Assembly (NCBI GenBank): GCA_043228905.1
Contig: JBHGNT010000003.1
Location: 1 to 64,000 of the forward strand
Direction of reading: 5' to 3'
Length of the DNA stretch: 64,000 nt
Source: Azolla caroliniana
Taxonomy: Eukaryota > Plantae > Polypodiophyta
Positions 6,001-63,701 of the stretch are shown here, piece by piece. The notes below the pieces were generated by a model, which was not told the origin of the DNA, ran no database searches, and saw only the letters and a list, made by a program, of their open reading frames with translations. Position 1 is the stretch's first letter; the number at the start of each line of letters is the position of its first letter. The position numbers were made by a program, and so were the translations under genes.

Positions 6001-6045
6001 AGTTTCAAAATCTTGATTTTTTAATTCCATATCATAGCTAGCGTT
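1..6045 (+). repeat. Higher-order repeat: 19-mer (3380 bp) followed by a 16-mer deletion derivative (2846-bp offset)
   Basis: Sequence at 1 recurs at 3381. Identical spurious ORFs at 507/3887 and 780/4160 (offset 3380), then at 1870/4716, 2560/5406 and 2818/5664 (offset 2846, i.e. 534 bp or 3 monomers fewer). Confidence 0.9.
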
Positions 6046-6949
6046 TTTAGCTTCGTTTCCCATGTTGGAACACAAAAATCCGATCTGACACGAGCCAGGT
6101 ATGAACATTTTAATTTACTCAAGGGATTCTCTCAACTCCCACCTCCTGTTTGCTAATTTCGTCACGTCTCTCGACCCGAGTTTCAAAATATTGATTTTTT
6201 AATTCCATATCATAGCTAGCGTTGTTGGCTTTGATTCGCATGTTTGAACACAAAAATCCGATATCACACGAGCCAGGTATGAACATTTTATTTTACTCAA
6301 GGGCTCCTCTCAACTCACTACTCAAATTTGGTAATTTCGTCATGTCTCTCCACCTGAGTTTCAAAATCTTGATTTTTTAATTCCATATCATAGCTAGCGT
6401 TGTTAGCTTCGATTCGCATGTTTGAACACAAAAATTCGATATCACACGAGCCAGGTATGACCATTTTAATTTACTCAAGCGCTCCTCTCAACTCCCTCCT
6501 CATGTTTGGTAATTTCGTCATGTCTCTCGACCTGAGTTTCAAAATCTTGATTTTTTAATTCTATATCATAGCTAGCGTTTTTAGCTTCGTTTCCCATGTT
6601 GGAACACAAAAATCCGATCTGACACGAGCTAGGTATGAACATTTTAATTTACTCAAGGGCTGTTCTCAACTCCCTCCTCATGTTTGCTAATTTCGTCATG
6701 TCTCTCGACCCGAGTTTCAAAATATTGATTTTTTAATTCCATATCATAGCTAGGGTTGTTGGCTTTGATTCGCATGTTTGAACACAAAAATCCGATATCA
6801 CACGAGCCAGGTATGAACATTTTATTTTACTCAAGGGCTCCTCTCAACTCACTACTCAAATTTGGTAATTTCGTCATGTGTCTCTACCTAAGTTTCAAAA
6901 TTCTGATTTTTTAATTCCGTATCATAGCTAGCGTTGTTAGCTTCAATTC

Positions 6950-9900
6950 GCATGTTTGAACACAAAAATCCGATATGACACGAGCCAGGTATGAACATTT
7001 TATTTAACTCAAGGGTTTGTCTCAGCTCCCTCCTCATGTTTGCTAATTTCGTCATGACAGGCAACCTGAGTTTCAAAATCTTCATTTTCTAATTCCATAT
7101 CATAGCTAGCGTTGTTAGCTTCGATTCGCATGTTGGAACACAAAAATCCGATATGACAGGAGCCAGGTATGAACATTTTAATTGTCCTAAAGGGCTCCTC
7201 TCAACTCCCTCGTCATGTTTGCTAATTTCTTCATGTCTCTCGACCTGAGTTACAAAATCTTGATTTTTGAATTCCATATCATAGCTAGCGTTGTTAGCTT
7301 CGATTCGCATGTTTGAACACAAAAATCAGATATCACACGAGCCAGGTATGAACATTTTATTTAACTCAAGGGCTCCTCTCAACTCCCTCCTCATGTTTGC
7401 TAATTTCGTCATGTGTCTCGACCTGAGTTTCAAAGTCTTGATTATTTAATTCCATATCATAGCTAGCGTTGTTAGCTTCGTTTCGCATGTTTGAACACAA
7501 AAATCCGATATCACACGAGCCAGGTATGAACAGTTTAATTTTCTCAAGGGCTCCTCTCAACTCGCTCCTCATGTTTGCTAATTTCGTCATGTCTCTCGAC
7601 CCGAGTTTCAAAATATTGATTTTTTAATTCCATATCATAGCTAGCGTTGTTAGCTTCGATTCGCATGTTTGAACACAAAAATCCGATATGACATGAGCCA
7701 GGTATGAACATTTTAATTTTCTCAAGGGCTTCTCTCAACTCCCTCCTCATGTTTGCCTATTTCGTCATGTCTCTCGACTTGAGTGTCAAAATCTTGATTT
7801 TTTAATTCCATATCATAGCTAGCGTTTTTAGATTCGTTTCGCATGTTTGAACACAAAAATCTGATATGACACGAACCAGGTATGAACATTTTAATTTACT
7901 CCAGCGCTCCTCTCAATTCCCTCCTCATGTTTGCTAATTTCGTCATGTCTCTCGACCCGAGATTCAAAATCCAGGTTGTTGGCGTTGTTGGCTTCGATAC
8001 GCATGTTTGAACACAAATATCCGATATTACACGAGCCAGGTATGAACATTTTAATTTACTCAAGGCCTCCTCTCAACTCACTCCTCAAATTTGGTATTTG
8101 TCATGTCTCTCGACCTGAGTTTCAAAATCTTCATTTTTTAATTCCATATCATATCTAGCGTTGTTAGCATCCATTCGCATGTTTGAACACAAAAATCCGA
8201 TATGACACGAGCCAGGTATGAACATTTTAATTTTCTCAAGGGCTCCTCTCAACTCGCTCCTCATGTTTGATAATTTCTTCATGTCTCTCGACCTGAGTTT
8301 CAAAATTTTGATTTTTTAATTCCATATCATAGCTAGCGTTTTTAGCTTCGATTCGCATGTTTGAACACAAAAATCCGATATCACACGAGCCAGGTATGAA
8401 CATTTTAATTTACTCAAGGGCTCCTCTCAACTCCCTCCTCATGTTTGCTAATTTCGTCATGTCTCTCGACCCGAGTTTCAAAATCTTGATTTTTTAATTC
8501 CATATCATAGCGAGCGTTGTTAGCATCGATTCGCATGTTTGAACACAAAAATCTGAGTTCACACGAGCCAGGTATGACCATTTTAATTTACTGAAGGGCT
8601 CCTCTCAACTCCCTCCTCATGTTTGCTAATTTCGTCATGTCTCTCGACCTGAGTTTCAAAATCTTCATTTTTTAATTCGATATAATAGCTAGCGTTGTTA
8701 GCTTCGTTTCGCATGTTTGAACACAAAAATCCGATATCACACGAGCCAGGTATGAACATTTTAATTTTCTCAAGGGCTCCTCTCAACTCCCTCCTCATGT
8801 TTGCTAATTTCGTCATGTCTCTCGACCCGAGTTTCAAAATCTTGATTTTTTAATTCCATATCATAGCGAGCGTTGTTAGCATCGATTCGCATGTTTGAAC
8901 ACAAAAATCTGAGTTCACACGAGCCAGGTATGACCATTTTAATTTACTGAAGGGCTCCTCTCAACTCCCTCCTCATGTTTGCTAATTTCGTCATGTCTCT
9001 CGACCTGAGTTTCAAAATCTTCATTTTTTAATTCGATATCATAGCTAGCGTTGTTAGCTTCGATTCGCATGTTTGAACACAAAAATCCGATATGACACGA
9101 GCCAGGTATGAACATTTTATTTAACTCAAGGGTTCCTCTCAGCTCCCTCCTCATGTTTGCTAATTTCGTCATGACAGGCAACCTGAGTTTCAAAATCTTC
9201 ATTTTCTAATTCCATATCATAGCTAGCGTTGTTAGCTTCGATTCGCATGTTGGAACACAAAAATCCGATATGACAGGAGCCAGGTATGAACATTTTAATT
9301 GTCCTAAAGGGCTCCTCTCAACTCCCTCGTCATGTTTGCTAATTTCTTCATGTCTCTCGACCTGAGTTACAAAATCTTGATTTTTGAATTCCATATCATA
9401 GCTAGCGTTGTTAGCTTCGATTCGCATGTTTGAACACAAAAATCAGATATCACACGAGCCAGGTATGAACATTTTATTTAACTCAAGGGCTCCTCTCAAC
9501 TCCCTCCTCATGTTTGCTAATTTCGTCATGTGTCTCGACCTGAGTTTCAAAGTCTTGATTATTTAATTCCATATCATAGCTAGCGTTGTTAGCTTCGTTT
9601 CGCATGTTTGAACACAAAAATCCGATATCACACGAGCCAGGTATGAACAGTTTAATTTTCTCAAGGGCTCCTCTCAACTCGCTCCTCATGTTTGCTAATT
9701 TCGTCATGTCTCTCGACCCGAGTTTCAAAATATTGATTTTTTAATTCCATATCATAGCTAGCGTTGTTAGCTTCGATTCGCATGTTTGAACACAAAAATC
9801 CGATATGACATGAGCCAGGTATGAACATTTTAATTTTCTCAAGGGCTCCTCTCAACTCCCTCCTCATGTTTGCCTATTTCGTCATGTCTCTCGACTTGAG

Positions 9901-10980
9901 TGTCAAAATCTTGATTTTTTAATTCCATATCATAGCTAGCGTTTTTAGATTCGTTTCGCATGTTTGAACACAAAAATCTGATATGACACGAACCAGGTAT
10001 GAACATTTTAATTTACTCCAGCGCTCCTCTCAATTCCCTCCTCATGTTTGCTAATTTCGTCATGTCTCTCGACCCGAGATTCAAAATCCAGGTTGTTGGC
10101 GTTGTTGGCTTCGATACGCATGTTTGAACACAAATATCCGATATTACACGAGCCAGGTATGAACATTTTAATTTACTCAAGGCCTCCTCTCAACTCACTC
10201 CTCAAATTTGGTATTTGTCATGTCTCTCGACCTGAGTTTCAAAATCTTCATTTTTTAATTCCATATCATATCTAGCGTTGTTAGCATCCATTCGCATGTT
10301 TGAACACAAAAATCCGATATGACACGAGCCAGGTATGAACATTTTAATTTTCTCAAGGGCTCCTCTCAACTCGCTCCTCATGTTTGATAATTTCGTCATG
10401 TCTCTCGACCTGAGTTTCAAAATTTTGATTTTTTAATTCCATATCATAGCTAGCGTTTTTAGCTTCGATTCGCATGTTTGAACACAGAAATCCGATATCA
10501 CACGAGCCAGGTATGAACATTTTAATTTACTCAAGGGCTCCTCTCAACTCCCTCCTCATGTTTGCTAATTTCGTCATGTCTCTCGACCCGAGTTTCAAAA
10601 TCTTGATTTTTTAATTCCATATCATAGCGAGCGTTGTTAGCATCGATTCGCATGTTTGAACACAAAAATCTGAGTTCACACGAGCCAGGTATGACCATTT
10701 TAATTTACTGAAGGGCTCCTCTCAACTCCCTCCTCATGTTTGCTAATTTCGTCATGTCTCTCGACCTGAGTTTCAAAATCTTCATTTTTTAATTCGATAT
10801 CATAGCTAGCGTTGTTAGCTTCGTTTCGCATGTTTGAACACAAAAATCCGATATCACACGAGCCAGGTATGAACATTTTAATTTTCTCAAGGGCTCCTCT
10901 CAACTCCCTCCTCATGTTTGCTAATTTCGTCATGTCTCTCGACCCGAGTTTCAAAATCTTGATTTTTTAATTCCATATCA
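6950..10980 (+). repeat. Higher-order repeat: 12-mer duplication, 2117-bp period
   Basis: Near-identical ORF pairs 7089/9206, 7366/9483, 7931/10048, 8085/10202 and 8583/10700 are all offset by 2117. Both copies carry the same shortened monomer (gattcaaaatccaggttgttggcg). Boundaries approximate. Confidence 0.9.
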
Positions 10981-13900
10981 TAGCTAGCGTTGTTGGCTTC
11001 GATTCGCATGTTTCAACACAAATATACGATATGACACGAGCCAGGTATGAACATTTTAATTTACTCAAGGGCTCCTCTCAACTCCCTTATCATGTTTGCT
11101 AATTTCGTCATGTCTCTCGACCTGAGTTTCAAAATCTTTATTTTTTAATTCCATATCATAGCTAGCGTTTTTAGCTTCGTTTCGCTTGTTTGAACACAAA
11201 AATCCGATATGACACGAGCCCGGTATGAACATTTTAATTTACTCAAGGGCTCCTCTCAACTCCCTCCTCATGTTTGCTAATTTCGTCATGTCTCTCGACC
11301 CGAGTTTCAAAATCTTGATTTTTTAATTCCATATCATAGCGAGCGTTGTTAGCATCGATTCGCATGTTTGAACACAAAAATCCGAGTTCACACGAGCCAG
11401 GTATGACCATTTTAATTTTCTCAAGGGCTCCTCTGAACTCACTACTCAAATTTGGTAATTTTGTCATGTCTCTCGACCTGAGTTTAAAAATCTTGATTTT
11501 TTAATTCCATATCATAGCTAGCGTTTTTAGCTTCGTTTTCCATGTTGGAACACAAAAATCCGATATCACACGAGCCAGGTATGAACATTTTAATTGTCCT
11601 ACTAGCTCTTCTCAACTCCCTCCTCATGTTTGCTAATTTCGTCATGTCTCTCGACCTGAGTTTCAAAATCTTTATTTTTTAATTCCATATCATAGCTAGC
11701 GTTTTTAGCTTCGTTTCGCATGTTTGAACACAGAAATCCGATATGACACGAGCCCGGTATGAACATTTTAATTTACTCAAGGGCTGCTCTCAACTCTCAC
11801 CTCATGTTTGCTAATTTCGTCATGTCTCTCGACCCGAGTTTCAAAATCTTGATTTTTTAATTCCATATCATAGCGAGCGTTGTTAGCATCGATTCGCATG
11901 TTTGAACACAAAAATCCGAGTTCACACGAGCCAGGTATGACCATTTTAATTTTCTCAAGGGCTCCTCTGAACTCACTACTCAAATTTGGTAATTTTGTCA
12001 TGTCTCTCGACCTGAGTTTCAAAATCTTCATTTTTTAATTCCATATCATAGCTAGCGTTTTTAGCTTCGTTTTCCATGTTGGAACACAAAAATCCGATCT
12101 GACACGAGCCAGGTATGAACATTTTAATTTACTCAAGGGCTTCTCTCAACTCCCTCCTCATGTTTGCTAATTTCGTCATGTCTCTCGACCCGAGTTTCAA
12201 AATATTGATTTTTTAATTCCATATCATAGCTCGCGTTGTTGGTTTTGATTCGCATGTTTGAACACAAAAATCCGATATCACACGAGCCAGGTGTGAACAT
12301 TTTATTTTACTCAAGGGCTCCTCTCAACTCACTACTCAAATTTGGTAATTTCGTCATGTCTCTCCACCTGAGTTTCAAAATTTTGATTTTTTAATTCCAT
12401 ATCATAGCTAGCGTTGTTAGCTTCGATTCGCATGTTTGAACACAAAAATCCGATATCACACGAGCCAGGTATGACCATTTTAATTTACTCAAGCGCTCCT
12501 CTCAACTCCCTCCTCATGTTTGGTAATTTCGTCATGTCTCTCGACCTGAGTTTCAAAATCTTCATTTTTTAATTCCAGATCATAGCTAGCGTTGTTAGCT
12601 TCGATTTGCATGTTTGAACACTAAAATCCGATATCACACGAGCCAGGTATGAACATTTTAATTTACTCAAGGGCTGCTCTGAAGTCACTCCCGAAATTTG
12701 GTAATTTCATCATGTCTCTTGACCTGAGTTTGAAAATCTTGATTTTTTAATTCCATATCATAGCTAGCGTTGTTAGCTTCGATTCGCATGTTTGAACACA
12801 AAAATCCGATATCACACGAGCCAGGTATGAACATTTTAATTGTCCTACTAGCTCTTCTCAACTCCCTCCTCATGTTTGCTAATTTCGTCATGTCTCTCGA
12901 CCTGAGTTTCAAAATCTTCTTTTTTTAATTCCATATCATAGCTAGCGTTGTTAGCTTCGATTCGCATGTTTGAACACTAAAATCCGATATCACACGAGCC
13001 AAGTATGAACATTTTAATTTACTCAAGGGCTCCACTCAACTCCCTCCTCATGTTTCGTGATTTCGTCATGTCTCTCGACATGAGTTTCGAAATCTTGATT
13101 TTTTAATTCCATATCATACCTAGCGTTGTTAGCTTCGATTCGCATGTTTGAACACAAAAATCCGATATCACACGAGCCAGGTATGAACATTTTAATTGTC
13201 CTACTAGCTCTTCTCAACTCACTCCTCAAATTTGGTAATTTCGTCATGTCTCTCGACCTGAGTTTCAAAATCTTGATTTTTTAATTCCATATCATAGCTA
13301 GCGTTGTTAGCTTCGATTCGCATGTTTGAACACAAAAATCCAATATCACACGAGCCAGGTATGAACATTTTGATTTACTCAAGGGCTGCTCTGAACTCAC
13401 TCCTGAAATTTGGTAATTTCATCATGTCTCTTGACCTGAGTTTGAAAATCTTCATTTTTTAATTCCATATCATAGCTAGCGTTGTTAGCTTCGATTCGCA
13501 TGTTTGAACACAAAAATCCGATATCACACGAGCCAGGTATGAACATTTTAATTGTCCTACTAGCTCTTCTCAACTCCCTCCTCTTGTTTGCTAATTTCGT
13601 CATGTCTCTCGACCTGAGTTTCAAAATCTTGATTTTTTTATTCCATATCATAGCTAGCGTTGTTAGCTTCGATTCGCATGTTTTAACACAAAAATCCGAT
13701 ATTACACTAGCCAAGTATGAACATTTTAATTTACTCAAGGGCTCCTCTCAACTCACTCCTCAAATTTGGTAATTTCATCATGTCTCTTGTCGTGAGTTTC
13801 AAAATCTTGATTTTTTAATTCCATAACATAGCTAGCGTTGTTAGCTTCGATTCGCATGTTTTAACACAAAAATCCGATATCACACGAGCCAGGTATGAAC

Positions 13901-14442
13901 ATTTTAATTGTCCTACTAGCTCTTCTCAACTCACTCCTCAAATTTGGTAATTTTGTCATGTATCTCGACCTGAGTTTCAAAATCTTGATTTTTTAATTCG
14001 ATATCATAGCTAGCGTTGTTAGCTTCGATTCGGATGTTTGAACACAAAAATCCGATATCACACGAGCCAGGTATGAACATTTTAATTGTCCTACTAGCTC
14101 TTCTCAAGTCACTCCTCAAATTTGGTAATTTTGTCATGTCTCTCGACCTTAGTTTCAAAATCTTGATTTTTTTATTCCAGATCATAACTAGTGTTGTTAG
14201 CTTCGATTCGCATGTTTGAACACAAAAATCCGATATGACACGAGCCAGGTATGAACATTTCAATTTACTCAAGGGCTCCTCTCAACTCCCTCCTCATGTT
14301 TGCTAATTTCGTCATGTCTCTCGACCTGAGTTTCAAAATCTTGATTACTAGGACCAAATGGTAGAAACATGGAGTGCGTAGAGATAGGCACAAGACGATT
14401 AGAGGGTGCTTAAGCTAAACAAGAGAAAGTAGGCAACATACA

Positions 14443-14447
<5 letters not shown>

Positions 14448-14485
<38 letters not shown>
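14448..14485. repeat. (GA)n microsatellite in PLE 3' region
   Basis: Pure GA dinucleotide run read directly. Confidence 0.97.
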
Positions 14486-14487
<2 letters not shown>

Positions 14488-14508
14488 TTTTTAATTCAAA
14501 GAGGGTGG

Positions 14509-14563
14509 TGGTCTTAGGCAAACTAGTTTCGCTCAATAGTGGAGCTCTTCAGTGCAAAGACCA
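14509..14563 (-). ncRNA. Minimal type I hammerhead ribozyme
   Basis: Minus strand reads UGGUCUU-U-GCA CUGAAGA GCUC-cacuauu-GAGC GAAA CUAG UU UGC-CU-AAGACCA. It has the CUGANGA and GAAA cores, a 4-bp stem II, stem I (GCA/UGC plus UGGUCUU/AAGACCA) and a minimal stem III within the palindrome AACUAGUU. Predicted cleavage after GUU, between 14521 and 14520. Confidence 0.88.
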
Positions 14564-14673
14564 TTACAACAAGAGAATGTGATTTATAAAGGGGTGGGAA
14601 GGAAGAGGGAGTGAGAGAAAAAGGAGTGGGGAGGATTTGATTTGTGTAGTAGATGAGAGAGAATAGAATGTGG

Positions 14674-14677
<4 letters not shown>

Positions 14678-14725
<48 letters not shown>
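14678..14725. repeat. (GA)n microsatellite in PLE 3' region
   Basis: Pure GA dinucleotide run read directly. Confidence 0.97.
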
Positions 14726-14728
<3 letters not shown>

Positions 14729-14830
14729 GTGTGTAGGAAAGTGTAGGGAATGAGAGAAGGGAAATTAGTATAATGATGATGGTGAGGGGGGAGTTTTTAA
14801 TGTGATGAAAAAGGGGGATTTGGGATAATA

Positions 14831-15034
14831 TTAAGTGGGGGATGTGGGTGAATTATTTGAAAACTTAGTGTTAAGTGGGGGATTTGGGTGGATTGTTTGA
14901 AACTTTAGTCTTAAGTGGGGGATTTGGGTGGATTGTTTGAAAATTTAGTCTTAAGTGGGGGATTTTGGTGGATTGTTTGAAAACTTAGTTTTAAGTGGGG
15001 GATTTTGGTGGATTTTTTGAAAACTTAGTCTTAA
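14831..15034. repeat. 40-bp minisatellite, 5 copies, overlapping the RT stop codon
   Basis: ttaagtgggggat(t/g)t(g/t)ggtggattgtttgaaaacttagt starts at 14831, 14871, 14911, 14951 and 14991. Confidence 0.95.
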
Positions 15035-16859
15035 CTAGGAGGGCATGTAAGGACTTAGATTTTGTCCAACATACGAAAGGGCGTGAGATGCTTGTAAGCT
15101 CGGGATCTAACATTAAGTCATTATAGAGATTGTTTAGAAAACTATGAATGCCTAGTTTTGGGGTATGTTTGGTGTATCTAAGTTTAAAGATTGTGGGGTT
15201 AAGGGAAGTAATAGTTTTGGGTTGATATAGGAGTGTTTTTCTAAGACTAAAAGGTATTTTCTTATAGCTTTTTAGTATAAAGGATGGAGGGTAACCACGG
15301 TTAACTAGTCTATTGAAAAAGAGTTTTTTCATTTGGTAGAAACCTAATGGGGTGCTTTCTCTAATAAGATATCTCTTCACTTCATTAGTGATAAAGTGTT
15401 GTTTCATATGGGAAGGATGATCCGATGAAAAAGGCAAGTATTGGTATGAATTGAGAGGTTTTTGAAAACAATTGAATAAGAAAGATGAATTTTCGAGGTT
15501 GATCCATATGTCTAAAAAAGGTAGCCGAAAGGGGGAAGTTTGAATGGTAAGCTTGATGGAGTTATTTGTGTGTGAAGGGTAAAAGTCGAGATATTCTAAA
15601 AGTTGAGATTTGGTGCCTGTCCAGACCCCAAATGCATCATCAATATAGCGGGTGAAGTAGAAGAGATGGGGGGGCGATGGTTGTAAGTTTTCGAGATATA
15701 CTAAAAAGAGGCATGCATATACGACTGAAAAGTTGCTACCCATGGCCGTACCTTTTATTTGTTGGTAAACTACGTCATCGAAAGTGAGATAGTGATATTC
15801 TAAAATAAGGGCACTAAGGGTATAGATAAGATTTGTTTTCGAAGGGGAAAAGTGGGGGGTGATTAGACTACGTAGGGCTTGGAGTCCTAACTTAGGGGGG
15901 ATACTAGGATAGAGAGATTCAACGTCAAACGTGAATAAGAAACTATTAGATGGTGGGTGTAGGTTTTCTAGTGATTGGATTAGTGTGTGAGAGTCTTTTA
16001 GATATTGTGGTTGGACAAGGAGGATTGGTAAAAGTTGGTGGTGTAACCACTTCGATGTTTGTTCAAATAAGGAGTTATTATATGAACAAATGGGCCGGAA
16101 ACCCATAGGTGTTTTGTGTAATTTAGGGAGGAAATAGAGGTTGGATACTTGATATCCTTTTTTGGGTTTGTGGAGGATGAAATTAGCTTCAATTGGGGAA
16201 AGTGTACCTAAGTGGTTTGTTATTATGTTATTAAGGCGGTATAGTAACTCTTCCAAGGGGAAGTGGCTGACTCTCTTATAGGTGGTAGAATTCGAGAGGT
16301 GTTCTATGGCTTTGGTGTAGTATGTGTCTTTATCTAGAACACATACTCCCATATTTTTATCGGCTGGGAGGATGATAATGTGTTTGTTGTGTTGGAGGCT
16401 TTTAAAGGCTCTAGAGAGGTGGTATGGGATTCTAGTGTTTATGGGCTTAGTGTTGTGTGCTATTTGGTTAAGGATGTGTTGGTGTTTTTCTATTATGGAG
16501 ACTAGGGGTGGATATTCTGTGGGTGGCATCCAACTAGGGTTAGGTAGTTTGAAGGGGTTGAGAGGAAGTGAAGGTGTATTTCTAAAAAAATGTTTTAGCT
16601 TGAGGGATCTCGAGAGGTGGGTGAATTCTTTTAGGATATTGTTGGGTGAGGGAGGTGGGGATGGTAGGATATACTTAAGGCCTAGGTTTAGCAATTGTGT
16701 TTCATTTTTAGTGAGGTTATGTTTAGAGAGGTTATGGATTTTACTAGGAATTACTTGTGTACTAGTAAGAGGTTTCCACAAGTTGGTTCTAGGTTTTTTA
16801 TTTCGGGATTTGGGGTGTGAAAGGAAGGGAAATAGTTTCTGTTTTCCCCCAAACCACAT
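14991..16859 (-). CDS. Penelope-like reverse transcriptase, 622 aa, no C-terminal GIY-YIG endonuclease
   Basis: PLE motifs in order: N-terminal NLSKHNLTKNETQLLNLGLKY, ILPADKNMG, LYFLPKLHK...FRPICS, motif A FTFDVESLYPSIP, motif B GTAMGSNFS, catalytic RYIDD (YIDD at 15636-15647), LPFLDI, thumb FQKP...YLPFSSDHP...RLVNRGYP. The ORF is uninterrupted and ends after the LHALLVKT linker-like segment. Confidence 0.93.
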   Translation of the reverse strand: MWFGGKQKLFPFLSHPKSRNKKPRTNLWKPLTSTQVIPSKIHNLSKHNLTKNETQLLNLGLKYILPSPPPSPNNILKEFTHLSRSLKLKHFFRNTPSLPLNPFKLPNPSWMPPTEYPPLVSIIEKHQHILNQIAHNTKPINTRIPYHLSRAFKSLQHNKHIIILPADKNMGVCVLDKDTYYTKAIEHLSNSTTYKRVSHFPLEELLYRLNNIITNHLGTLSPIEANFILHKPKKGYQVSNLYFLPKLHKTPMGFRPICSYNNSLFEQTSKWLHHQLLPILLVQPQYLKDSHTLIQSLENLHPPSNSFLFTFDVESLYPSIPPKLGLQALRSLITPHFSPSKTNLIYTLSALILEYHYLTFDDVVYQQIKGTAMGSNFSVVYACLFLVYLENLQPSPPHLFYFTRYIDDAFGVWTGTKSQLLEYLDFYPSHTNNSIKLTIQTSPFRLPFLDIWINLENSSFLFNCFQKPLNSYQYLPFSSDHPSHMKQHFITNEVKRYLIRESTPLGFYQMKKLFFNRLVNRGYPPSFILKSYKKIPFSLRKTLLYQPKTITSLNPTIFKLRYTKHTPKLGIHSFLNNLYNDLMLDPELTSISRPFVCWTKSKSLHALLVKTKFSKNPPKSPT

Positions 16860-17457
16860 ATATGTGTCTTGGGTGGAGGGGGATCTATTAAGTAGGTAGA
16901 ATAAATGTTTGCTAGGGTGTACGACGTGTCTAAACCGTTTGTTAACGCGTTTAGCACGCCTAGCTAACCGTTTTTTGGTCTACTAGGTTGTGGGTCTCCT
17001 AGTGGTTTTGGGGGAGGACAAGGTTTTGATGTATTTTGATAGTGTTTATAGTTTTTATGTGAGGGAGTGTTAGAAGAAAAGTTGGGGGTTTTTGTGTTAG
17101 GAAGAAGGGGGGTGTGAGAATAAAAGTTGGGGGTTTTTTTATTAGGAAGAAAGGGGGGGGGGGGGGGTTAGTGTAATATGGAGGATGTGTAGGGGGGAGA
17201 TGAGTTGAATATGGAGGATGTGTTGGGGGGGAATGATAAGTATAATGAGAGTGATGTGGGCTAATTAAAGGGTTATGGGTAGGGTAAGGATTTGAAAAAG
17301 GTGGGGAAGGGCATTGTTAAAATTAGATGATAATGGGGGAGGTGTAGAGTGATAAATGGAAGAAAATTGTGGGGGGTTTGAATGGAATTCTTCAACATAA
17401 GGGGGGTGGGTAGAGTAAGAATTAGACAAAAAGGGGGAGGGGGTATCCATGTAATAT

Positions 17458-18372
17458 TTAGAAAGTAAAAAGGGGGTAGGAGGAGGAGGATGGGGGAACG
17501 AGTGAGAGAAAGAGGGAGGGGGGGGGGGAGGAGGAGGAGGAGGAGGGAGCTGTTTGTACAGAGAGGTTGCGTGGGGGGAGAGAGGAGTGGGGAAGATTAG
17601 GGTTACGTAGGTGGGAGACATTGTTTTCTTCATAATACATGTGTGGGGTTGGGAGGAGAGGGGGCATGTATCCATGACGGCTGCCTTGTGCAGTCCCGTG
17701 CATCATGCCATGGAGGGGGGGTTGTAGATCTATAGGCCGGCTGTCATACACAGTCCGGAGCCTTACATTGGAGGGGGAGAACGGGTACGTATGATGGTTT
17801 CCGTTTCCATTTCCATAGATATGGTCGTTACCGGGTCGAAGATGGAGTGGCGGCCATGCTTGTAATTGTGAATGGTACCGGTCGCGTTGGCGTTCGTTGT
17901 GAGTGGGTGGCTGGTTCCTGTCGAATGTCGGTACTGGAGTACGTGGATCCGACATATATGGTGGATGGTGTCCGGCGTTGGATGTGGTATAGGGATGTGA
18001 GGGAAGTTTATTTTGGTTAATAAATGTAACGCTCGGGCCATTAAGGTTAAAGGGGGGGACGAAGTTCTTACTGACTTCGTTTGTGGCTATATTGCAAGTA
18101 AATCGGGGGAGGGAGTGATGATTGGTTGGTCGGAGAGGCTTTTGTTGCAAGGGTTTAGGGTTAGGCTTATGGTTGGTGTTATTTTTAGGGTTATTGTTAG
18201 GGTTAGTAATAGGGTTGGTTTTATGCTTATGATTAGTATTAGGATGTATCTTTTTAGGACCAAATGGTCGGACATGCACATCACTGTTATGTTTAGCACT
18301 ACTAGTGTTATCGAGAGTTGTAAAGTGTGATGGATTGTTATAATAATCTTCATAGTCATTCTCTTCACTCAT
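17458..18372 (-). CDS. Putative PLE ORF1, 304 aa, Asn/Pro/His-rich low-complexity protein of unknown function
   Basis: ATG-initiated ORF ~150 bp from the element 5' end, same strand as the RT. No recognisable domain. The C/A-rich strand composition could favour long open frames by chance. Confidence 0.5.
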   Translation of the reverse strand: MSEENDYEDYYNNPSHFTTLDNTSSAKHNSDVHVRPFGPKKIHPNTNHKHKTNPITNPNNNPKNNTNHKPNPKPLQQKPLRPTNHHSLPRFTCNIATNEVSKNFVPPFNLNGPSVTFINQNKLPSHPYTTSNAGHHPPYMSDPRTPVPTFDRNQPPTHNERQRDRYHSQLQAWPPLHLRPGNDHIYGNGNGNHHTYPFSPSNVRLRTVYDSRPIDLQPPLHGMMHGTAQGSRHGYMPPLLPTPHMYYEENNVSHLRNPNLPHSSLPPRNLSVQTAPSSSSSSPPPSLFLSLVPPSSSSYPLFTF

Positions 18373-18519
18373 CTCTATATCTATTTTTCTAATGTTTAAC
18401 TTCTTTGACGTATCTACAATACTTATGTGTGTTTTTTCTAAGAGTTCATTGTTTGTGAGTGATTTTTCTTTATATTTAGTAGCATTTAAATGTATGGCAG
18501 TTTCGATTGTGTAGCATTT

Positions 18520-21500
18520 AAATCCGATCTAACACGAGCTAGGTATGAACATTTTCATTTACTCAAGGGCTCTTCTCAACTCACTCCTCATGTTTGCTAA
18601 TTTCGTCATGTCTCTCGACCTGAGTTTCAAAATCTTGATTTTTTAATTCCATATCATAGCTAGCTTTGTTAGCTTCGATTCGCATGTTTGAACACAAATA
18701 TCCGATATGACACGAGCCAGGTATGAACATTTTAATTTACTAACCCACTCTTCTCCACTCTATCATCAAATTTGCTAATTTCTTCATATCTCTCGACCCG
18801 AGTTTCAAAATCTTGATTTTTTAATTCCATATCATAGGTAGCGTTGTTAGTTTCCATTCGGATGTTTGAACACAAAAATCCGATATCACACGAGCCAGGT
18901 ATGAACATTTTAATTTAATAACCCGCTCTTCTCCACTACCTCCTCAAATTTCCTAATTTCTTCATATCTCTCGAACCGAGTTTCAAAATCTTGCTTTTTT
19001 AATTCCATATCATAGGTAGCGTTGTTAGCTTCCATTCGGATGTTGGAACACAAAAATCCGATATCACACGAGCCAGGTCTGAACATTTTAATTTACTCAA
19101 GGGCTCCCCTCTACTACCTCCTCAAATTTGCTAATTGCGTCATCTCTCTCGACCTGAGTGTCAAAATCTTGATTTTTTAATTCTATATCATATCAAGCAT
19201 TGTTAGCTTCGATTCTCATGTTCGAACAGTGGAATCCGATATCACACGAGCCAGGTATGAACATTTTAATTTACTCAAGGGCTCCTCTCAACTCCCTCCT
19301 CCAGTTAGCTAATTTCGTCATGTCTCTCGACCTGAGTTTCCCAATCTTGATTTTTTAATTCCATATCATATCTAGCGTTGTTAGCTTCGATTCGCATGTT
19401 CGAACACAGGAATCCGATATCACACGAGCCAGGTATGCACATTTTAATTTACTCAAGGGCTCCTCTCAACTCCCTCCTCTAGTTAGCTAATTTCATCATG
19501 TGTCTCGACCTGAGATTCAAAATCATAGCTAGCGTTTTTTTAATTCTATATCATAGCTAACGTTGTTAGCTTCAATTCGCATGTTTGAACACAGGAATCC
19601 GATATCACACGAGCCAGGTATGAACATTTTAATTTACTCAAGGGCTCCTCTCAACTAGCTCCTCAAATTTGCTAATTTCGTCATCTCTCTCGACCTAAGT
19701 TTTAAAATCTTGATTTTTTTATTCCATATTATAGGTAGTGTTTTTAGCTTCGCTTCGCATGTTTGAACACAAAAATCCAATATCACACGAGCCAAGTATG
19801 AACATTTTAATTTTCTCAAGGGCTCCTCTCCACTACTTCCTCAAGTTTGCTTATTTCGTCATCTCTCTCGACCTGAGTTTCAAAATCTTGATTTTTTAAT
19901 TCCATATCATAGGTAGTGTTGTCAGCTTCGATTCGCATGTTCGAACACAAAAATCCGATATGACACGAGCAAGGTATGAACATTTTCATTTACTAACCCG
20001 CTCTTTTCCACTAGCTCCTCAAATTTGCTAATTTCTTCATCTCTCTCGACCTGAGTTTCAAAATCTTGATTTTTTAATTCTATATCATAGCTAGCATTGT
20101 TAGCTTCGATTCGCATGTTTGAACACAAAAATCCAATATTACACGAGCCAAGTATGAACATTTTAATTTACTCAAGGGCTCCTGTCCACTACTTCCTCAA
20201 GTTTGCTAATTTCGTCATGTCTCTCGACTTGAGTTTCAAAATCTTGATTTTTTAATTCCATATCATAGGTAGTGTAGTTAGCTTCGATTCGCATGTTCGA
20301 ACACAAAAATCCGATATGACACGAGCAAGGTATGAACATTTTCATTTACTAACCCGCTCTTCTCCACTAGCTCCTCAAATTTGCTAATTTCGTCATCTCT
20401 CTCGACCTGAGTTTCAAAATCTTGATTTTTTAATTCCATATCATAGCTAACATTGTTAGCTTCGATTCACATGTTTCAACACAAAAATCGGATATCACAC
20501 GAGCCAGGTATGAACATTTTAATATACTCAAGGCTCCTCTCAACTCCCTCCTCCAGTTTGCTAATTTCGTCATGTCTCTCGACCTGAGTTTCAAAATATT
20601 GATTTTTTAATTCCATATCATATCTAGCGTTGTTAGCTTCCATTCGCATGTTCGAACACAAGAATCCGATATCACACGATCCAAGTAGGAACATTTTAAT
20701 TTACTCAAGGGCTCCTCTCAACTCCCTCCTCCAGTTACGTAATTTCATCATGTGTCTCGACCTGAGTTTCAAAACCTTGATTTTTTAATTCTATATCATA
20801 GCTAGCGTTGTTAGCTTCGATTCGCATGTTTGAACACAAAAATCCAATATTACACGAGCCATGTATGAACATTTTGATTTACTCAAGGGCTCCTCTCGAC
20901 TACTTCCTCAAGTTTGCTCATTTCGTCATCTCTCTCGACTTGAGTTTCAAAATCTTGATTTTTTAATTCAATATCATAGGTAGTGTTGTTAGCTTCGATT
21001 CGGATGTTTGAACACAAAAATCCGATATCACACCAGCCAGGTCTAAACATTTTAATTTACTCAAGGGCTCCCCTCTACTACCTCCTCAAATTTGCAAATT
21101 GCGTCATCTCTCTCGACCTGAGTGTCAAAATCTTGATTTTTTAACTCTATATCATATCAAGCATTGTTAGCTTCGATTCTCATGTTTGAACAGTGGAATC
21201 CGTTATCACACGAGCCAGGTATGAACATTTTAATTTACTCAAGGGCTCCTCTCAACTCCCTCCTCTAGTTAGCTAATTTCGTCATGTCTCTCGACCTGAG
21301 TTTCCAAATCTTGATTTTTTAATTCCATATCATATCTAGCGTTGTTCGAACACAGGAATCCGATATCACACGTTCGAACACAGGAATCCGATATCACACG
21401 AGCCAGGTATGCACATTTTAATTTACTCAAGGGCTCCTCTCAACTCCCACCTCTAGTTAGCTAATTTCGTCATGTGTCTCGACCTGAGATTCAAAATCAT

Positions 21501-24500
21501 AGCTAGCGTTTTTTTAATTCTATATCATAGCTAGCGTTGTTAGCTTCAATTCGCAAGTTTGAACACAGAAATCCGATATCACACGAGCCAGGTATCAACA
21601 TTTTAATTTACTCAAGGGCTCCTCTCCACTACTTCCTCAAGTTTGCTAATTTCTTCATCTCTCTCGACCTGAGTTTCAAAATCTTGCTTTTTTAATTCCA
21701 TATCATAGGTAGTGTTGTTAGCTTCGATTCGCATGTTCGAACACAAAAATCCGATATGACACGAGCCAGGTATGAACATTTTCATTTACTAACCCGCTCT
21801 TCTCCACTAGCTCCTCAAATTTGCTAATTTCGTCATCTCTCTCGACCTGAGTTTCAAAATCTTGATTTTTTAATTCCATATCATAGCTAGCGTTGTTAGC
21901 TTCCATTTGCATGTTCGAACACAAGAATCCGATATCACACGATACAAGTAGGAATATTTTAATTTACTCAAGGGCTCCTCTCAACTCCCTCCTCCAGTTA
22001 CCTAATTTCATCATGTCTCTCGACTTGAGTTTCAGAATCTTGATATTTTAATTCCATATCATAGCTAGCAATGTTAGCTTCGATTCGCATGTTTGAACAC
22101 AAAAATCCAATATTACACGAGCCAAGTATGAACATTTTAATTTACTCAAGGGCTCCTCTCCACTACTTCCTCAAGTTTGCTAATTTCGTCATCTCTCTCG
22201 ACTTGAGTTTCAAAATCTTGATTTTTTAATTCAATATCATAGGTAGTGTTGTTAGCTTCGATTCGCATGTTCGAACACAAAAATCCGATATGACACGAGC
22301 AAGGTATGAACATTTTTATTTACTAACCCGCTCTTCTCCACTAGCTCCTCAAATTTGCTAATTTCGTCATCTCTCTCGACCTGAATTTCAAAATCTTGAT
22401 ATTTTAATTCTATATCATAGCTAGCATTGTTAGCTTCGATTCGCATGTTTGAACACAGAAATCCAATATTACACGAGCCAAGGATGAACATTTTAATTTA
22501 CTCAAGGGCTCCTCTCCACTACTTCCTCAAGTTTGCTAATTTCGTCATCTCTCTGGACTTGAGTTTCAAAATCTTGATTTTTTAATTCCATATCATAGGT
22601 AGTGTCGTTAGCTTCGATTCGCATGTTCGAACACAAAAATCCGATATGACACGAGCAAGGTATGAACATTTTCATTTACTAACCCGCTCTTCTCCACTAG
22701 CTCCTCAAATTTGCTAATTTCGTCATCTCTCTCGACCTGAGTTTCAAAATCTTGATTTTTTAATTCCATATCATAGCTAACATTGTTAGCTTCGATTCGC
22801 ATGTTTGAACACAAAAATCCGATATCACACGAGCCAGGTATGAACATTTTAATTTACTCAAGGCTCCTCTCAACTCCCTCCTCCAGTTTGCTAATTTCGT
22901 CATGTCTGTCGACCTGAGTTTCAAAATCTTGATTTATTAATTCCACATTATAGCTAGCTTCTTAGCTTCGATTCGCATGTTTGAACACAAAAATCCAATA
23001 TCACACAAGCCAGGTATGAACATTTTAATTTACCTACTAGCTCTTCTCTACTCACTCCTCAAATTTGGTAATTTCGTCATGTCTCTCGACCTGAGTTTCA
23101 AAATCCTTATTTTTTAATTCCATATCATAGCTAGCGTTGTTAGCTTCGATTCGCATGTTTGAACACAAAAATCTGATATCACACGAGCCAGGTATGAACA
23201 TTTTAATTTACTCAAGACTCCTCTCAACTCCTTCCTCAAGTTTGCTAATTTCGTCATGTCTGTCGACCTGAGTTTCAAAATCTTGATTAATTAACTCCAT
23301 ATTATAGCTAGCGTTGTTAGCTTCGATTCGCATGTTTGAACACAAAATCCGATATGACATGAGCCAGGTATGAACATTTTAATTTACCTACTAGGTCTTC
23401 TCAACTCACTCCTTAAATTTGGTAATTTCGTCATGTGTCTTGACCTGAGTTTCAAAATCTTGATTTTTTAATTCCATATCATAGCTAGCGTTGTTAGCTT
23501 CGATTCTCCTATTCGAACACAAAAATCCGATATCACACGAACCAGGTATGAACATTTTAATTTACTAACGCGCTCTTCTCAACTGCCTCCTCACGTTTGC
23601 TAATTTCTTCATGTCTCTCGACCTGAGTCTCAAAATTATAATTTTTCAATTCAATATCATAGCTACTGTTGTTAGCTATGATTCGCATGTGTCAACAGAA
23701 AAATCCGATATCACACGAGCCAGGTATGAACATTTTAAATTACTAACGCGCTTTTCTCCACTAGCTCCTCAAATTTGCTAATTTCTTCATGTCTCTCGAC
23801 CCGAGTTTCAAAATCTTAGTTTTTTAATTCCATATCATAGGTAGCGTTGTTAGCTTCCATTGGGATGTTTGAACACAAAAATCCGATATTACAGGGCCCA
23901 GGTCTGAACATTTTAATTTACTCTCGGGCTCTTCTCCACTACCTCCTCAAGTTTGCTAATTTCTTCATATCTCTCGACCAAGTTTCAAAATCTTGATATT
24001 CTAATTCCATATCATAACTAGCGTTGTTAGCTTCGATTCGCTTGTTTGAACACAGGAATCCGATATCACACGAGCCAGGTATCAACAATTTAATTTACTC
24101 AAGGGCTCCTCTCCACTACTTTCTCAAGTTTGCTAATTTCGTCATCTATGTCGACCTGAGTTTGAAAATCTTGATTTTTTAATTCCATATCATAGGTAGT
24201 GTTGTTAGCTTCGATTTGCATGTTTGAACGCAAAAATCCGATATTACACGAGCCAGGTATGAACATTTTAATTTACGAACGCGCTCTTCTACAGTAGCTC
24301 CTCAACTTTGCTAATTTTGTCATCGCTCTGGACCTGAGTTTCAAAATCGTCATTTTTTTATTCCATATCATAGCTAGCATTGTTAGCTTCGAGTTGGATG
24401 TTCCAACACAAAAATCCGATATAACACGAGCCAGGTATGAATATTTTAATTTACTAACGCGCTCTTCTCCACTAGCTCTTCAAATTTGCTAATTTCGTCA

Positions 24501-27500
24501 TCTCTCTCGACCTGAGTTTCAAAATCTCTATTTTTGAATTCCATATCATAGGTAGCGTTGTTAGCTTCGATTCGCATGTTTCAACACAAAAATCCGATAT
24601 GACACGAGCAAGGTATGAACATTTTCATTTACTAACGCGCTCCTCTCCACTAGCTCCTCAAATTTGCTAATTTCGTCATCTCTTTCGACCTATGTTTTAA
24701 AATCTTAATATTTTTATTCCCTATTATAGGTAGCGTTGTTAGCTTTGATTCGTATGTTTGAAAACAAAAATCGTATATCACACGAGCTAGGTATGAACAT
24801 TTTAATTTACTCTCCACTACCTTCTCGAGTTTGCAAATTTCTTCATATCTCTCGACCCGAGTTTCGAAATATTGATTTTTTAATTCCATCTCATAGCTAG
24901 CGTTATTAGCTTCGATTAGCTTGTTTGAACACAGGAATCCGATATCACACGACCCAGGTATGAACCTTTTAATTTACTCAAGGGCTCCTCTCAACTCCCT
25001 CCTCCAGTTAGCTAATTTCGTCATGTCTCTCGACCTGAGTTTCGAAATCTTGATTTATTAATTCCATATTATAGCTAGCGTTGTTAGCTTCGATTCGCAT
25101 GTTTGAACACAAAAATCCGATATCACACGAGCCAGGTATGAACATTTTAATTTACTCAAGGCTCCTCTCAACTCCGTCCTCAAGTTTGCTAATTTCGTCA
25201 TGTCTGTCGACCTGAGTTTCAAAATCTTGATTAATTAATTCCATATTTGCTAATTTCTTCATGTCTCTCGACCCGAGTTTCAAAATCTTGGTTTTTTAAT
25301 TCCATATCATAGGTAGTGTGTTAGCTTCCATTGGGATGTTTGAACACAAAAATCCGATATGACAGGGGCCAGGTCTGAACATTTTAATTTACTCTCGGGC
25401 TCTTCTCCACTACCTCCTCAAGTTTACTAATTTCTTCATATCTCTCGACCCAAGTTTCAAAATCTTGATTTTTTAATTCCATATCATAGCTAGCGTTGTT
25501 AGCTTCGTTTCGCATGTTTGAACACAAAAATCTGATATCACACGAGCCAGGTATCAACATTTTAATTTACTCAAGGGCTTTTCTCCACTAGCTCCTCAAA
25601 TTTGCTAATTTCTTCATGTCTCTCGACCCGAGTTTCAAAATCTTCGTTTTTTAATTCCATATCATAGGTAGCGTTGTTAGCTTCCATTGGGATGTTTGAA
25701 CACAAAAATCCGATATTACAGGGGCCAGGTATGAATATTTTAATTTACTAACGCGCTCTTCTTCACTACCTCCTCAAATTTACTCAAGGCTCCTCTGAAC
25801 TCCCTCCTCCAGTTTGCTAATTTCGCCATGTCTGTCGACCTGAGTTTCAAAATCTTGATTTATTAATTCCATATTATAGCTAGCGTTGTTTGCTTCGATT
25901 CGCATGTTTGAACACAAAAATCCGATATCACACAAGACAGGTATGAACATTTTAATTTACCTACTAGCTCTTCTCTACTCACTCCTCAAATTTGGTAATT
26001 TCGTCATGTCTCTCGACCTGAGTTTCAAAATCCTTATTTTTTAATTCCATATCATAGCTAGCGTTGTTAGCTTCGATTCGCATGTTTGAACACAAAAATC
26101 CGATATCACACGAGCCAGGTATGAACATTTTAATTTACTCAAGGCTCCTCTCAACTCCTTCCTCAAGTTTGCTAATTTCGTCATGTCTGTCGACCTAAGT
26201 TTCAAAATCTTGATTAATTAATTCGATATTATAGCTAGCGTTGTTAGCTTCGATTCGCATGTTTGAACACAAAAATCCGATATCACACGAGCCAGGTATG
26301 AACATTTTAATTTACCTACTAGCTCTTCTCATAGCTCGCGTTGTTAGCTTCGATTCGCATGTTCGAACACAAAAATCCGATATCACACGAGCCAGGTATG
26401 AACATTTTAAATTACTAACGCGCTCCTCTCCACTAGCTACTTAAATTTGCTAATTTCGTCATATCTGTCGACCTAAGTTTTAAAATCTTGAATTTTTTAT
26501 TCCATATTATAGGTAGCATTGTTAGCTTCGATTTGCATGTTTGAACACAAAAATCCAATATCACACGAGGAGAGTATGAACATTTTAATTTACTCATGGG
26601 CTCCTCTCCACTACTTCCTCAAGTTTGCTAAATTCGGCCTCTCTCTCGACCTAAGTTTTAAAATCTTGATTTTTTTATTCCATATCATAGCCAGCGTTGT
26701 TAGCTTCGATTCGCATGTTTCAACACTACAATCCGATATGACACGAGCAAGGTATGAACATTTTCATTTTCATTTTCAAGGGCTATTCTCAACTGCCTCC
26801 TCACGTTTGCTAATTTCTTCATGTCTCTCGACCTGAGTCTCAAAATTATAATTTTTCAATTCAATATCATAGCTACTGTTGTTAGCTATGATTCGCATGT
26901 GTCAACAGAAAAATCCGATATCACACGAGCCAGGTATGAACATTTTAAATTACTAACGCGCTCCTCTCCACTAGCTCCTCAAATTTGCTAATTTCGTCAT
27001 CTCTCTCGACCTAAGTTTTAAAATCTTGATTTTTTTATTCCATATTATAGGTAGCGTTGTTAGCTTCGATTCGCATGTATGAACACAAAAATCCTATATC
27101 ACACGAGCTAGGTATGAACATTTTAATTTACTCTCCACTACCTTCTTAATATTGATAATTTCGTCATCTCTCTCGACCTGAGTTTCAAAATCTTGATTTT
27201 TTAATTCCATCTCATAGCTAGCGTTGTTAGCTTCGATTCGCATGTTTCAACACTACAATCCGATATGACACGAGCAAGGTATGAACATTTTCATTTTCAT
27301 TTTCAAGGGCTATTCTGAACTGCCTCCTCACGTTTGCTAATTTCTTCATGTCTCTCGACCTGAGTCTCAAAATTATAATTTTTCAATTCAATATCATAGC
27401 TACTGTTGTTAGCTATGATTCGCATGTGTCAACAGAAAAATCCGATATCACACGAGCCAGGTATGAACATTTTAAATTACTAACGCGCTCCTCTCCACTA

Positions 27501-41279: not shown

Positions 41280-41380
41280 CGTAATGTGAGGCAAAGAGCG
41301 AAAAATACAACAAACCAGTAATAGATTAAAAGATGAAATAGGATACAATTGGTGTCAAGCTGGAGGTAGAGGTTCGAGCT

Positions 41381-41422
<42 letters not shown>

Positions 41423-41735
41423 GCGCCTGCGCACATACGCACTAGTCACGCTTTGGTCGGAAGTGCACGAGCTTCCTACATGAGTAGATGCCTCACCCTA
41501 GCTATCCGAATCAGCACTGAATAGGACAAGAAAACAAACAGATCTCCTTATCACAACTGTAGCATCTTCTGTTCCAAAATGATGGATCCCAAATATAGAC
41601 TCCCTCCCTCCCTCCCTCAAGGGGTGGGAGGGTCAGTGTCACATCAGGCTCTTAAGAGAGCCTTTTCGGTCAGAGATCCTCCCCATGATTCTCTACCCTC
41701 ACCCACCTTTGTTCCCCTCTATCCGCAGGATCATA
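41280..41735. mobile_element. ~456-bp non-satellite insertion, probable solo LTR or retroelement remnant
   Basis: Unique non-coding segment with termini cgtaat...atcata (possible decayed TG...CA) and an internal (CA)n tract, as in the CA/GT-rich LTR at 63.1-63.6 kb. No target-site duplication visible. Confidence 0.5.
41384..41420. repeat. (CA)n microsatellite
   Basis: Pure CA run read directly. Confidence 0.97.
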
Positions 41736-59297: not shown

Positions 59298-59310
59298 GAA
59301 TCACGACCTG

Positions 59311-62975: not shown

Positions 62976-63081
62976 CAATACCTCAATGTTCACTACGCTC
63001 CGCTGTCGTGGAGAAAACCGTCCCTAGGCAAACTCGGAGAATAATGTGCGCGAACTAGCCCTTATACATAGGCACAAGTTT
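60353..63081 (-). mobile_element. Truncated internal region of an LTR retrotransposon (Ty3/gypsy-like; leader plus gag), LTRs not in window
   Basis: Series of minus-strand ORF fragments with Gag-like motifs. Abuts the inverted satellite on the left and is interrupted by a second element on the right. Confidence 0.75.
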
Positions 63082-63657: not shown

Positions 63658-63661
63658 TATT

Positions 63662-63680
63662 TGGTGAACCTGACGTGAAT
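63662..63680 (+). promoter_or_regulatory. Primer binding site complementary to the 3' end of tRNA-Trp
   Basis: TGGTGAACCTGACGTGAAT versus TGGTGAACCCGACGTGAAT, the reverse complement of the plant cytosolic tRNA-Trp(CCA) 3' end as I recall it. One C to T mismatch at a CG. Confidence 0.8.
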
Positions 63681-63701
63681 AGGCGGCAGAGGAATAGAAA
63701 G

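What the first reader, a model, noticed from the sequence alone, without database searches (positions are those of the whole stretch)
14347..18519. Intact endonuclease-less Penelope-like retroelement with a ribozyme, embedded in a centromere-like satellite
Seen: an uninterrupted PLE RT that stops where a GIY-YIG domain would begin, no nuclease motif elsewhere in the element, an upstream ORF, a hammerhead, no TSD, and satellite on both sides. Known: EN-deficient PLEs (Athena in bdelloid rotifers, Coprina in basidiomycetes, relatives in Selaginella) are telomerase-related and typically sit at chromosome termini, priming on exposed DNA ends. Inference: this could be an EN-less PLE family that uses breaks in centromeric satellite rather than telomeres, i.e. 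a satellite-targeted or break-healing retroelement. The intact ORF suggests recent activity. One copy cannot establish targeting.
Basis: partly seen in the sequence, partly recalled or inferred. Interest (0 to 1): 0.88.

Follow-up and report, generated by a model that had tools for sequence, protein, structure and literature searches.

The report
Nuclease-free fern retroelement inside satellite DNA
This is a front-truncated copy of a telomerase-related jumping gene with no DNA-cutting enzyme, in a plant that is likely a fern; its relatives sit mostly in ordinary DNA, so it likely landed in this repeat array by patching a chance DNA break rather than by aiming at the array.

Summary
The element is real: a Penelope-like reverse transcriptase (RT) with a telomerase-like fold, no GIY-YIG nuclease, a hammerhead ribozyme, no target-site duplication, and 178-bp satellite on both sides. 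The whole family lacks the nuclease (0 hits in the window and 67 related loci), so this is not a 3'-deleted copy. Two claims fail. (1) 'Intact': only the RT frame is. The copy lacks its promoter and the first 269 of about 811 ORF1 codons, and the ORF1 remnant is frameshifted. (2) 'Satellite-targeted': 1 of 46 flanks in 48 close relatives is satellite. Of 8 clean 3' ends, 6 join unrelated DNA, 1 joins telomeric repeats and 1 (this copy) joins satellite. The family unit is ORF1, a conserved predicted -1 frameshift signal, RT and a palindromic hammerhead, in 4.6-5.5 kb head-to-tail tandems. Its RT groups with the telomere-associated Selaginella lineage and with ginkgo and conifer proteins; the host is probably a fern. 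Best reading: a young nuclease-free family that primes on pre-existing DNA ends at internal sites, beside a sister family that still uses telomeres. New variant of a known kind; moderate interest.

The parts
1..14346 (+). 178-bp satellite, homogeneous side (monomers 90-92% alike); supplies the primer end at the element's 3' junction
14345..14520 (-). 3' pseudo-LTR tail: sequence downstream of the hammerhead that in tandem copies is the 5' UTR of the next ORF1; ends about 20 nt before the ORF1 start, with 2 nt shared with the satellite
   Evidence: contigs of other runs also align down to 14345
14508..14572 (-). type I hammerhead ribozyme with a 6-nt palindromic helix III (predicted to cleave as a dimer, between 14521 and 14520)
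   Evidence: dimer model from PMC4209133 passages
14583..14588 (-). TATA-like box upstream of the hammerhead, likely the pseudo-LTR promoter for a downstream unit
   Evidence: present 25-55 nt upstream of 44 of 47 hammerhead cores
14589..14990 (-). 3' UTR with (CT)n tract (14678-14725) and 40-bp tandem repeat (14831-15034, overlapping the RT stop)
14991..16979 (-). RT frame, 662 codons stop to stop (first Met at 16859); PLE DKN, RT1-7 and thumb motifs, YIDD active site, no insertion-in-fingers, no nuclease domain
16907..16976 (-). slippery heptamer A-AAA-AAC (16976-16970) followed by a stable stem-loop; predicted -1 ribosomal frameshift fusing ORF1 to RT
16964..18512 (-). ORF1 remnant (codon 270 onward of about 811): tail of the helical domain, Asn/Pro tract written in CCCTAA-like codons, His/Pro-rich region; three frame changes
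18513..18519 (-). 7-nt junction insert; with its flanks it forms a 12-nt copy (18523-18512) of element sequence 32 nt inside (18491-18480)
   Evidence: sequence
18520..60347 (+). 178-bp satellite, more diverged side (86% falling to 81% alike), resuming 57 bp (modulo 178) later in the monomer
   Evidence: phase by arithmetic on coordinates

Best explanation
This is a 5'-truncated copy of a nuclease-free Penelope-like retroelement family, in a host that is likely a fern, and it was likely inserted when the element's reverse transcriptase used a broken satellite end as primer. Shown: family anatomy (pseudo-LTR with TATA-like box and hammerhead, ORF1, slippery site and stem-loop, RT, 3' UTR, repeated head to tail), absence of GIY-YIG, 3' ends clustered 7-26 nt upstream of the ORF1 start, varied flanks. 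Inferred: an ORF1-RT fusion made by -1 frameshifting binds a multi-unit RNA and starts cDNA at a fixed internal site just upstream of ORF1, as shown in vitro for another PLE; any free 3'-OH serves as primer, a telomeric overhang in the sister family that carries CCCTAAA repeats at that site, a break or stalled fork in families such as this one that do not; copying stopped inside ORF1 and the other end was sealed by microhomology-mediated joining, giving a deletion and a short templated insert instead of a TSD. This copy lacks its promoter and ORF1 start and would not be autonomous.
For: RT relatives at 63-93% identity are about 620 aa from the Met with no PF01541. A GIY-YIG profile that finds 53 of 261 RT proteins finds nothing in six frames of the window or 67 loci. 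Best structural matches are telomerase RTs (Foldseek 3du5 E 1.5e-11; VIA Z 18.7, rmsd 3.5, 317 aligned). ORF1's conserved domain folds as long helices with no PDB match at E<=0.001. Unit spacing 4.6-5.5 kb in L012, L016, L023, L050. Eight clean 3' ends at -7 to -26 from the ORF1 start: 6 unrelated DNA, 1 telomeric repeats (L031), 1 satellite. 1 of 46 flanks is satellite. Summed contig depth falls from the RT towards ORF1 in three runs, as expected from 5' truncation (rough). Internal initiation downstream of the hammerhead: PMC11167929, main text read.
Against: No empty-site comparison is possible for any copy but this one, and no whole genome was held. The flanks come from short-read contigs, which collapse repeats, can be chimeric at microsatellites, and under-sample satellite and telomeres. 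A second family member (L011) abuts a 194-bp satellite about 71% like this one, in the same relative orientation. The frameshift stem is conserved but only 1 of 11 pairs shows a two-sided change, and it overlaps coding sequence. The source of the break is not observed.
Confidence: 0.65

Rival explanations
1. The family is mobilised in trans at nicks cut by another element's endonuclease, such as an L1-type LINE or an EN+ PLE in the same genome.
For: An intact L1-like LINE occurs in the same assemblies, beside a family member (L018/L019). The 3' junction here lies in a T run near a TTTT/AA-like site (the L1 consensus is recalled).
Against: The junction is 4-6 nt from the T/A step; the other 7 clean 3' junctions share no motif by eye; there is no TSD here, and words shared between flanks in 14 two-flank contigs are only 4-8 nt (contigs may be chimeric).
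Confidence: 0.12
2. The family prefers centromeric satellite, either by sequence or because the arrays break often.
For: This copy, and L011 next to a homologous 194-bp satellite; contigs are biased against satellite flanks.
Against: 1 of 46 flanks; in the closest subfamily (L001-L004, 92-99% RT identity) all 6 flanks seen are non-satellite; only one PLE in about 55 kb of satellite in this window; L011's junction is inside ORF1, not at the usual 3' end.
Confidence: 0.1
3. The copy was added at a chromosome end in the usual Coprina way and later became internal by fusion or rearrangement.
For: It sits one monomer from a boundary between a homogeneous and a more diverged array; a sister family joins telomeric repeats (L031).
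Against: No telomeric repeats at either junction or in this subfamily's 3' tail; satellite keeps the same orientation on both sides, and the first monomer to the right is of the left-hand type.
Confidence: 0.08
4. The junctions are an assembly artefact.
For: No listed contig bridges a junction; several homopolymer indels in the copy.
Against: The 3' junction falls at the family's usual end position and the 5' junction carries a templated insert, neither expected of a misjoin; the tables were cut and contigs drop rare forms.
Confidence: 0.05

Closest known systems
Coprina-type EN- PLEs of Selaginella moellendorffii (Sm1/Sm2; 'Selagine1' in Fig. S1 of PMC8557442)
   Same: RT3-RT4 segment of the same length (75 vs 76 aa) and about 42 identical residues by eye; S. 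moellendorffii protein P0024 at 38% identity branches at the base of the same land-plant clade; no nuclease; hammerhead in the pseudo-LTR.
   Different: Not telomeric; no reverse-complement telomeric repeats after the hammerhead; palindromic dimer-type hammerhead where Selaginella PLEs are reported to have canonical ones (PMC4209133 passages); long ORF1 with a frameshift link.
Athena / Terminon EN- PLEs of bdelloid rotifers
   Same: Two ORFs, coiled-coil ORF1, optional frameshift with an RNA structure, hammerhead, head-to-tail chains (PMC8557442 Fig. 1 legend; PMC6431247 passages).
   Different: Described as a rotifer-specific clade attached to telomeres; RT motifs differ; not placed in my trees.
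PLE-X (EN- Chlamys) of Chara and Selaginella
   Same: Plant PLEs that lack GIY-YIG yet insert internally, genome-wide in Chara and in 28S rDNA in Selaginella; mechanism stated to be unknown (PMC8557442 section 9).
   Different: They belong to the Naiad/Chlamys clade with CxC motif and insertion-in-fingers; this RT has no such insertion.
Poseidon PAc of Anolis (EN+)
   Same: Tandem pseudo-LTR layout and cDNA start at a fixed internal site downstream of the hammerhead (PMC11167929).
   Different: PAc has a C-terminal GIY-YIG nuclease and one ORF.

Membership tests
Penelope-like elements | RT most similar to telomerase RT, with PLE N-terminal and DKN motifs | tested here: met
Penelope-like elements | pseudo-LTRs from tandem or partial-tandem copies, frequent 5' truncation | tested here: met
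   hammerhead followed by ORF1 start in 18 loci; two units in one contig; truncations at different points in the window and L001
Penelope-like elements | hammerhead ribozyme in the pseudo-LTR | tested here: met
   motif in 46 of 68 sequences; 89.6% of cells paired, 10 of 16 pairs with two-sided change, slid controls 23-43%; cleavage activity not tested
Coprina (EN- PLE clade) | no GIY-YIG endonuclease | tested here: met
Coprina (EN- PLE clade) | RT falls in the Coprina clade | tested here: inconclusive
   groups with a Selaginella EN- protein inside a wide clade with no GIY-YIG hit whose sisters are EN+ and matches 'Selagine1', but no named fungal Coprina, Athena, Naiad or TERT sequence was in the trees
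Coprina (EN- PLE clade) | reverse-complement telomeric repeats next to the hammerhead and attachment to telomeres | tested here: not met
   none in the window or its subfamily; present in sister families L023, L027, L028, L030, L031, and L031 runs into (CCCTAAA)n
PLE-X / Chlamys / Naiad | insertion-in-fingers domain between RT3 and RT4 | tested here: not met
   spacing equals that of canonical PLEs
Penelope/Poseidon (incl. conifer Dryads), Neptune | C-terminal GIY-YIG with CCHH motif | tested here: not met
Athena | RT in the rotifer Athena clade | not tested
   no named Athena sequence available to the tree scripts
Centromeric satellite | CENH3 binding | not testable with these tools
   only period, abundance and a divergence gradient were seen

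The most novel reading that the evidence does not exclude
A telomerase-sister retroelement lineage, inherited through lycophytes, ferns and gymnosperms, has in ferns split into telomere-capping families and families that lost the telomeric priming repeats and now act as RNA-templated patchers of internal DNA breaks, with fragile centromeric satellite as a preferred landing zone that they help to remodel.
Probability: 0.2. Interest if true: 0.8.

Novelty: new variant of a known kind. Interest (0 to 1): 0.5.

Why it matters
How nuclease-free PLEs obtain a primer away from telomeres is stated as open in PMC8557442. Here young sister families in the same assemblies differ at the priming site: one carries CCCTAAA repeats and joins telomeric DNA, others lack them and sit at internal sites. 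That is a ready comparison for how a telomerase-like RT switches from chromosome ends to internal breaks. The data also extend the Selaginella lineage to ferns, Ginkgo, Picea and Cryptomeria, which my literature searches did not find described. The satellite location by itself matters little.

Tried and rejected
No whole genome was held, so genome-wide mapping was impossible. Pfam found nothing in the five window ORFs and a PDB sequence search nothing; RVT_1 appears only weakly in relatives. Rfam found no hammerhead. First pair count on the hammerhead alignment used mis-numbered columns and is disregarded (corrected). '3'-deleted EN+ copy' rejected. 'Hidden nuclease in ORF1' not supported: all-helical model, no Pfam or PDB match; only the conserved 250-aa domain was folded, and a missing match does not exclude a fold. 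'Angiosperm host' rejected for the close relative L004. 'rDNA-targeted PLE-X' rejected. No RNA holder listed. Junction-bridging contigs not seen in cut tables. Two key papers were not held (PMC1890498; PMC5850863); their content is known only through citing papers. Earlier findings of the scan: nothing returned. ORF1 domain search returned only 3 close unnamed proteins.
Full report
Observation. The window is almost all 178-bp satellite. Between 14347 and 18519 lies a minus-strand insert with opposite GC skew. It holds a 662-codon open frame at 16979-14991 and a 356-codon frame at 18528-17458. Pfam and a PDB sequence search gave nothing for the window's ORFs, but a homolog search returned 167 proteins (120 listed), led by unnamed ones at 63-93% identity and about 620 aa, then Cryptomeria, Selaginella and Ginkgo proteins at 38-41%. 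The AlphaFold model (pLDDT 84) matches telomerase RTs best. So the RT is a PLE RT.

No nuclease. All 20 aligned proteins but one shorter entry end at the same motif. I built a profile from 13 GIY-YIG-bearing relatives; it detects 53 of 261 RT proteins but nothing at E<=1 in six frames of window 14001-19000 or of 67 related loci. The conserved ORF1 domain folds as long helices with no PDB match at E<=0.001. The family is natively nuclease-free.

Family anatomy. A scan of metagenome contigs gave 67 loci; L001 is 98.3% identical over 3112 nt. Complete ORF1s are 720-870 aa. ORF1 ends at a conserved A-AAA-AAC heptamer followed by a stem-loop, in 36 of 68 sequences by a strict pattern, misses including contigs that do not reach the site and divergent families. 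The window's stem-loop has z -4.64, but covariation is slight (1 of 11 pairs), so the -1 frameshift is a prediction. The hammerhead motif occurs in 46 of 68 sequences with a TATA-like box upstream in 44 of 47 cases. Across 17 aligned hammerheads, 89.6% of cells pair against 23-43% for slid controls, and helix III stays a palindrome in four different spellings, the form reported to cleave as a dimer (PMC4209133, passages). Rfam did not detect it. In 18 loci the hammerhead is followed by an ORF1 start, and four contigs hold two units 4.6-5.5 kb apart.

The window's copy. It begins at codon 270 of ORF1, so promoter, 5' pseudo-LTR and most of the helical domain are gone. The remnant changes frame three times at low-complexity runs, which may be errors. 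The RT frame differs from L001 at 12 of 1986 nt, so the family is young, but this copy is not intact. Its 3' end stops about 20 nt before the next ORF1 start, sharing 2 nt with the satellite. There is no TSD. The satellite resumes 57 bp (modulo 178) further on (arithmetic). The 5' junction has a 7-nt insert that makes a 12-nt copy of element sequence 32 nt inside, which I read as microhomology-mediated repair (inference from general knowledge). The copy sits one monomer from the change between a 90-92% homogeneous array and an 86-81% one, a layout like the edge of a centromeric array; CENH3 was not testable.

Targeting. Eight 3' ends lie at -7 to -26 from the ORF1 start, away from microsatellites: L001, L003, L024, L033, L037 and L046 join unrelated DNA, L031 joins (CCCTAAA)n, and the window joins satellite. 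This fixed internal end matches the internal initiation shown for the Anolis PLE (PMC11167929, parts 1-2 of 4 read). Among 48 close loci (19 divergent ones left out for lack of reference ends), 22 5' and 24 3' flanks were recovered and 1 of the 46 is satellite: L011, next to a 194-bp repeat about 71% like this one. About four of the 46 may be unmasked element DNA, two pairs are the same insertion, several end at microsatellites where assemblies misjoin, and L031's telomeric end was masked in that count. Short-read contigs are biased against satellite, so a preference is not excluded, but strict targeting is. Families L023, L027, L028, L030 and L031 carry 9-19 CCCTAA hexamers within 600 nt after the hammerhead; the window's subfamily has none. 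Both kinds occur in the same assemblies.

Host and lineage. A gene fragment flanking L004 (RT 92% identical to the window's) has its best named matches in the ferns Adiantum (54-55%) and Ceratopteris (50%), against about 31-42% for full-length angiosperm matches. The window's host is therefore probably a fern; this is indirect. In a FastTree tree of 102 of 239 eligible RTs, the window nests in a clade (support 1.0) with Selaginella at the base, then a Ginkgo/conifer branch and a branch holding all the close loci (Ginkgo and Picea names). IQ-TREE on 46 taxa gives that clade aLRT 82, and 100 with two long unnamed branches added. The branching fits vertical descent, not tested further. The CCCTAA-bearing families are sister to the window's subclade, but deeper branches lack the repeats, so the direction of change is unresolved.

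What is known. The RT3-RT4 segment closely matches 'Selagine1' in Fig. S1 of PMC8557442 (supplement searched, part 54 read), which I take to be the Selaginella element listed as Coprina Sm1/Sm2 in PMC13159263 (passages); that equation is my inference. PMC8557442 (introduction part, sections 9 and 12 and passages read) says EN- PLEs are generally restricted to chromosome ends, and reports EN- PLE-X families that insert genome-wide or in rDNA by an unknown route. So nuclease-free internal insertion has precedent in another clade. PMC12477314 (passages) names only Selaginella for plant telomeric PLEs. The Cryptomeria genome paper lists 'LINE/Penelope' only as a table row (passages). Searches for Penelope-like with angiosperm/satellite/centromer, fern/telomer (37), Coprina/subtelomer (74), Cryptomeria (81), ferns/Salvinia (88), gymnosperm/lycophyte/Dryads (97) and for Azolla satellite (71) showed, in their listings, no description of this fern family; the library lacks most subscription papers and Repbase, so it may be on record there.

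Verdict. Real, nuclease-free, recently active family; this copy truncated; satellite position likely incidental. It works like Coprina and Athena in RT type, hammerhead and tandem layout, but fails their telomere feature, so I file it as a new variant of a known kind. Interest 0.5, carried by the paired telomeric and non-telomeric sister families rather than by the satellite.

Noticed in passing
window 59298-60347: The satellite flips orientation at about 59300 and ends at about 60347.
   Followed up: no
window 60350-64000: Decayed gag-like frames and LTR-like sequence, probably an old Ty3-type LTR retroelement (label by eye, no search).
   Followed up: no
window 40754-41751 and 53959-54562: Short interruptions of the satellite, one with a (CA)n tract at 41384-41420.
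   Followed up: no
window 19056-21570: Higher-order duplication in the satellite: monomers at 19056/21020 and 19412/21386 are 97% alike, about 1.97 kb apart.
   Followed up: no
L011:5503-6096: A 194-bp satellite about 71% like the 178-bp one, joined to a partial second unit of another family; suggests a second or related-species satellite of the same ancestry.
   Followed up: partly
L012:10517-10638, L034 end, L056 end, L061 end: Four loci of different families run from a (CT)n or T tract into the same tRNA/SINE-like sequence; a SINE that likes microsatellites or an assembly misjoin.
   Followed up: no
L018:674-5943 and L019: An intact L1-like LINE (ORF2 1278 aa, ORF1 480 aa) lies head to head with a PLE unit.
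   Followed up: no
window 18140-18220; L014:4860-4940; L027:800-1650: ORF1 has an Asn-Pro tract written in CCCTAA-like codons, so the RNA carries telomere-complementary sequence inside ORF1; L014 ends there.
   Followed up: partly
proteins P0017 cluster, P0021 cluster: Conifer members lie several to a short scaffold (Cryptomeria 15-52 kb scaffolds; six entries on one 24-kb contig), hinting at tandem chains; one is annotated in a Picea glauca mitochondrial gene set.
   Followed up: no
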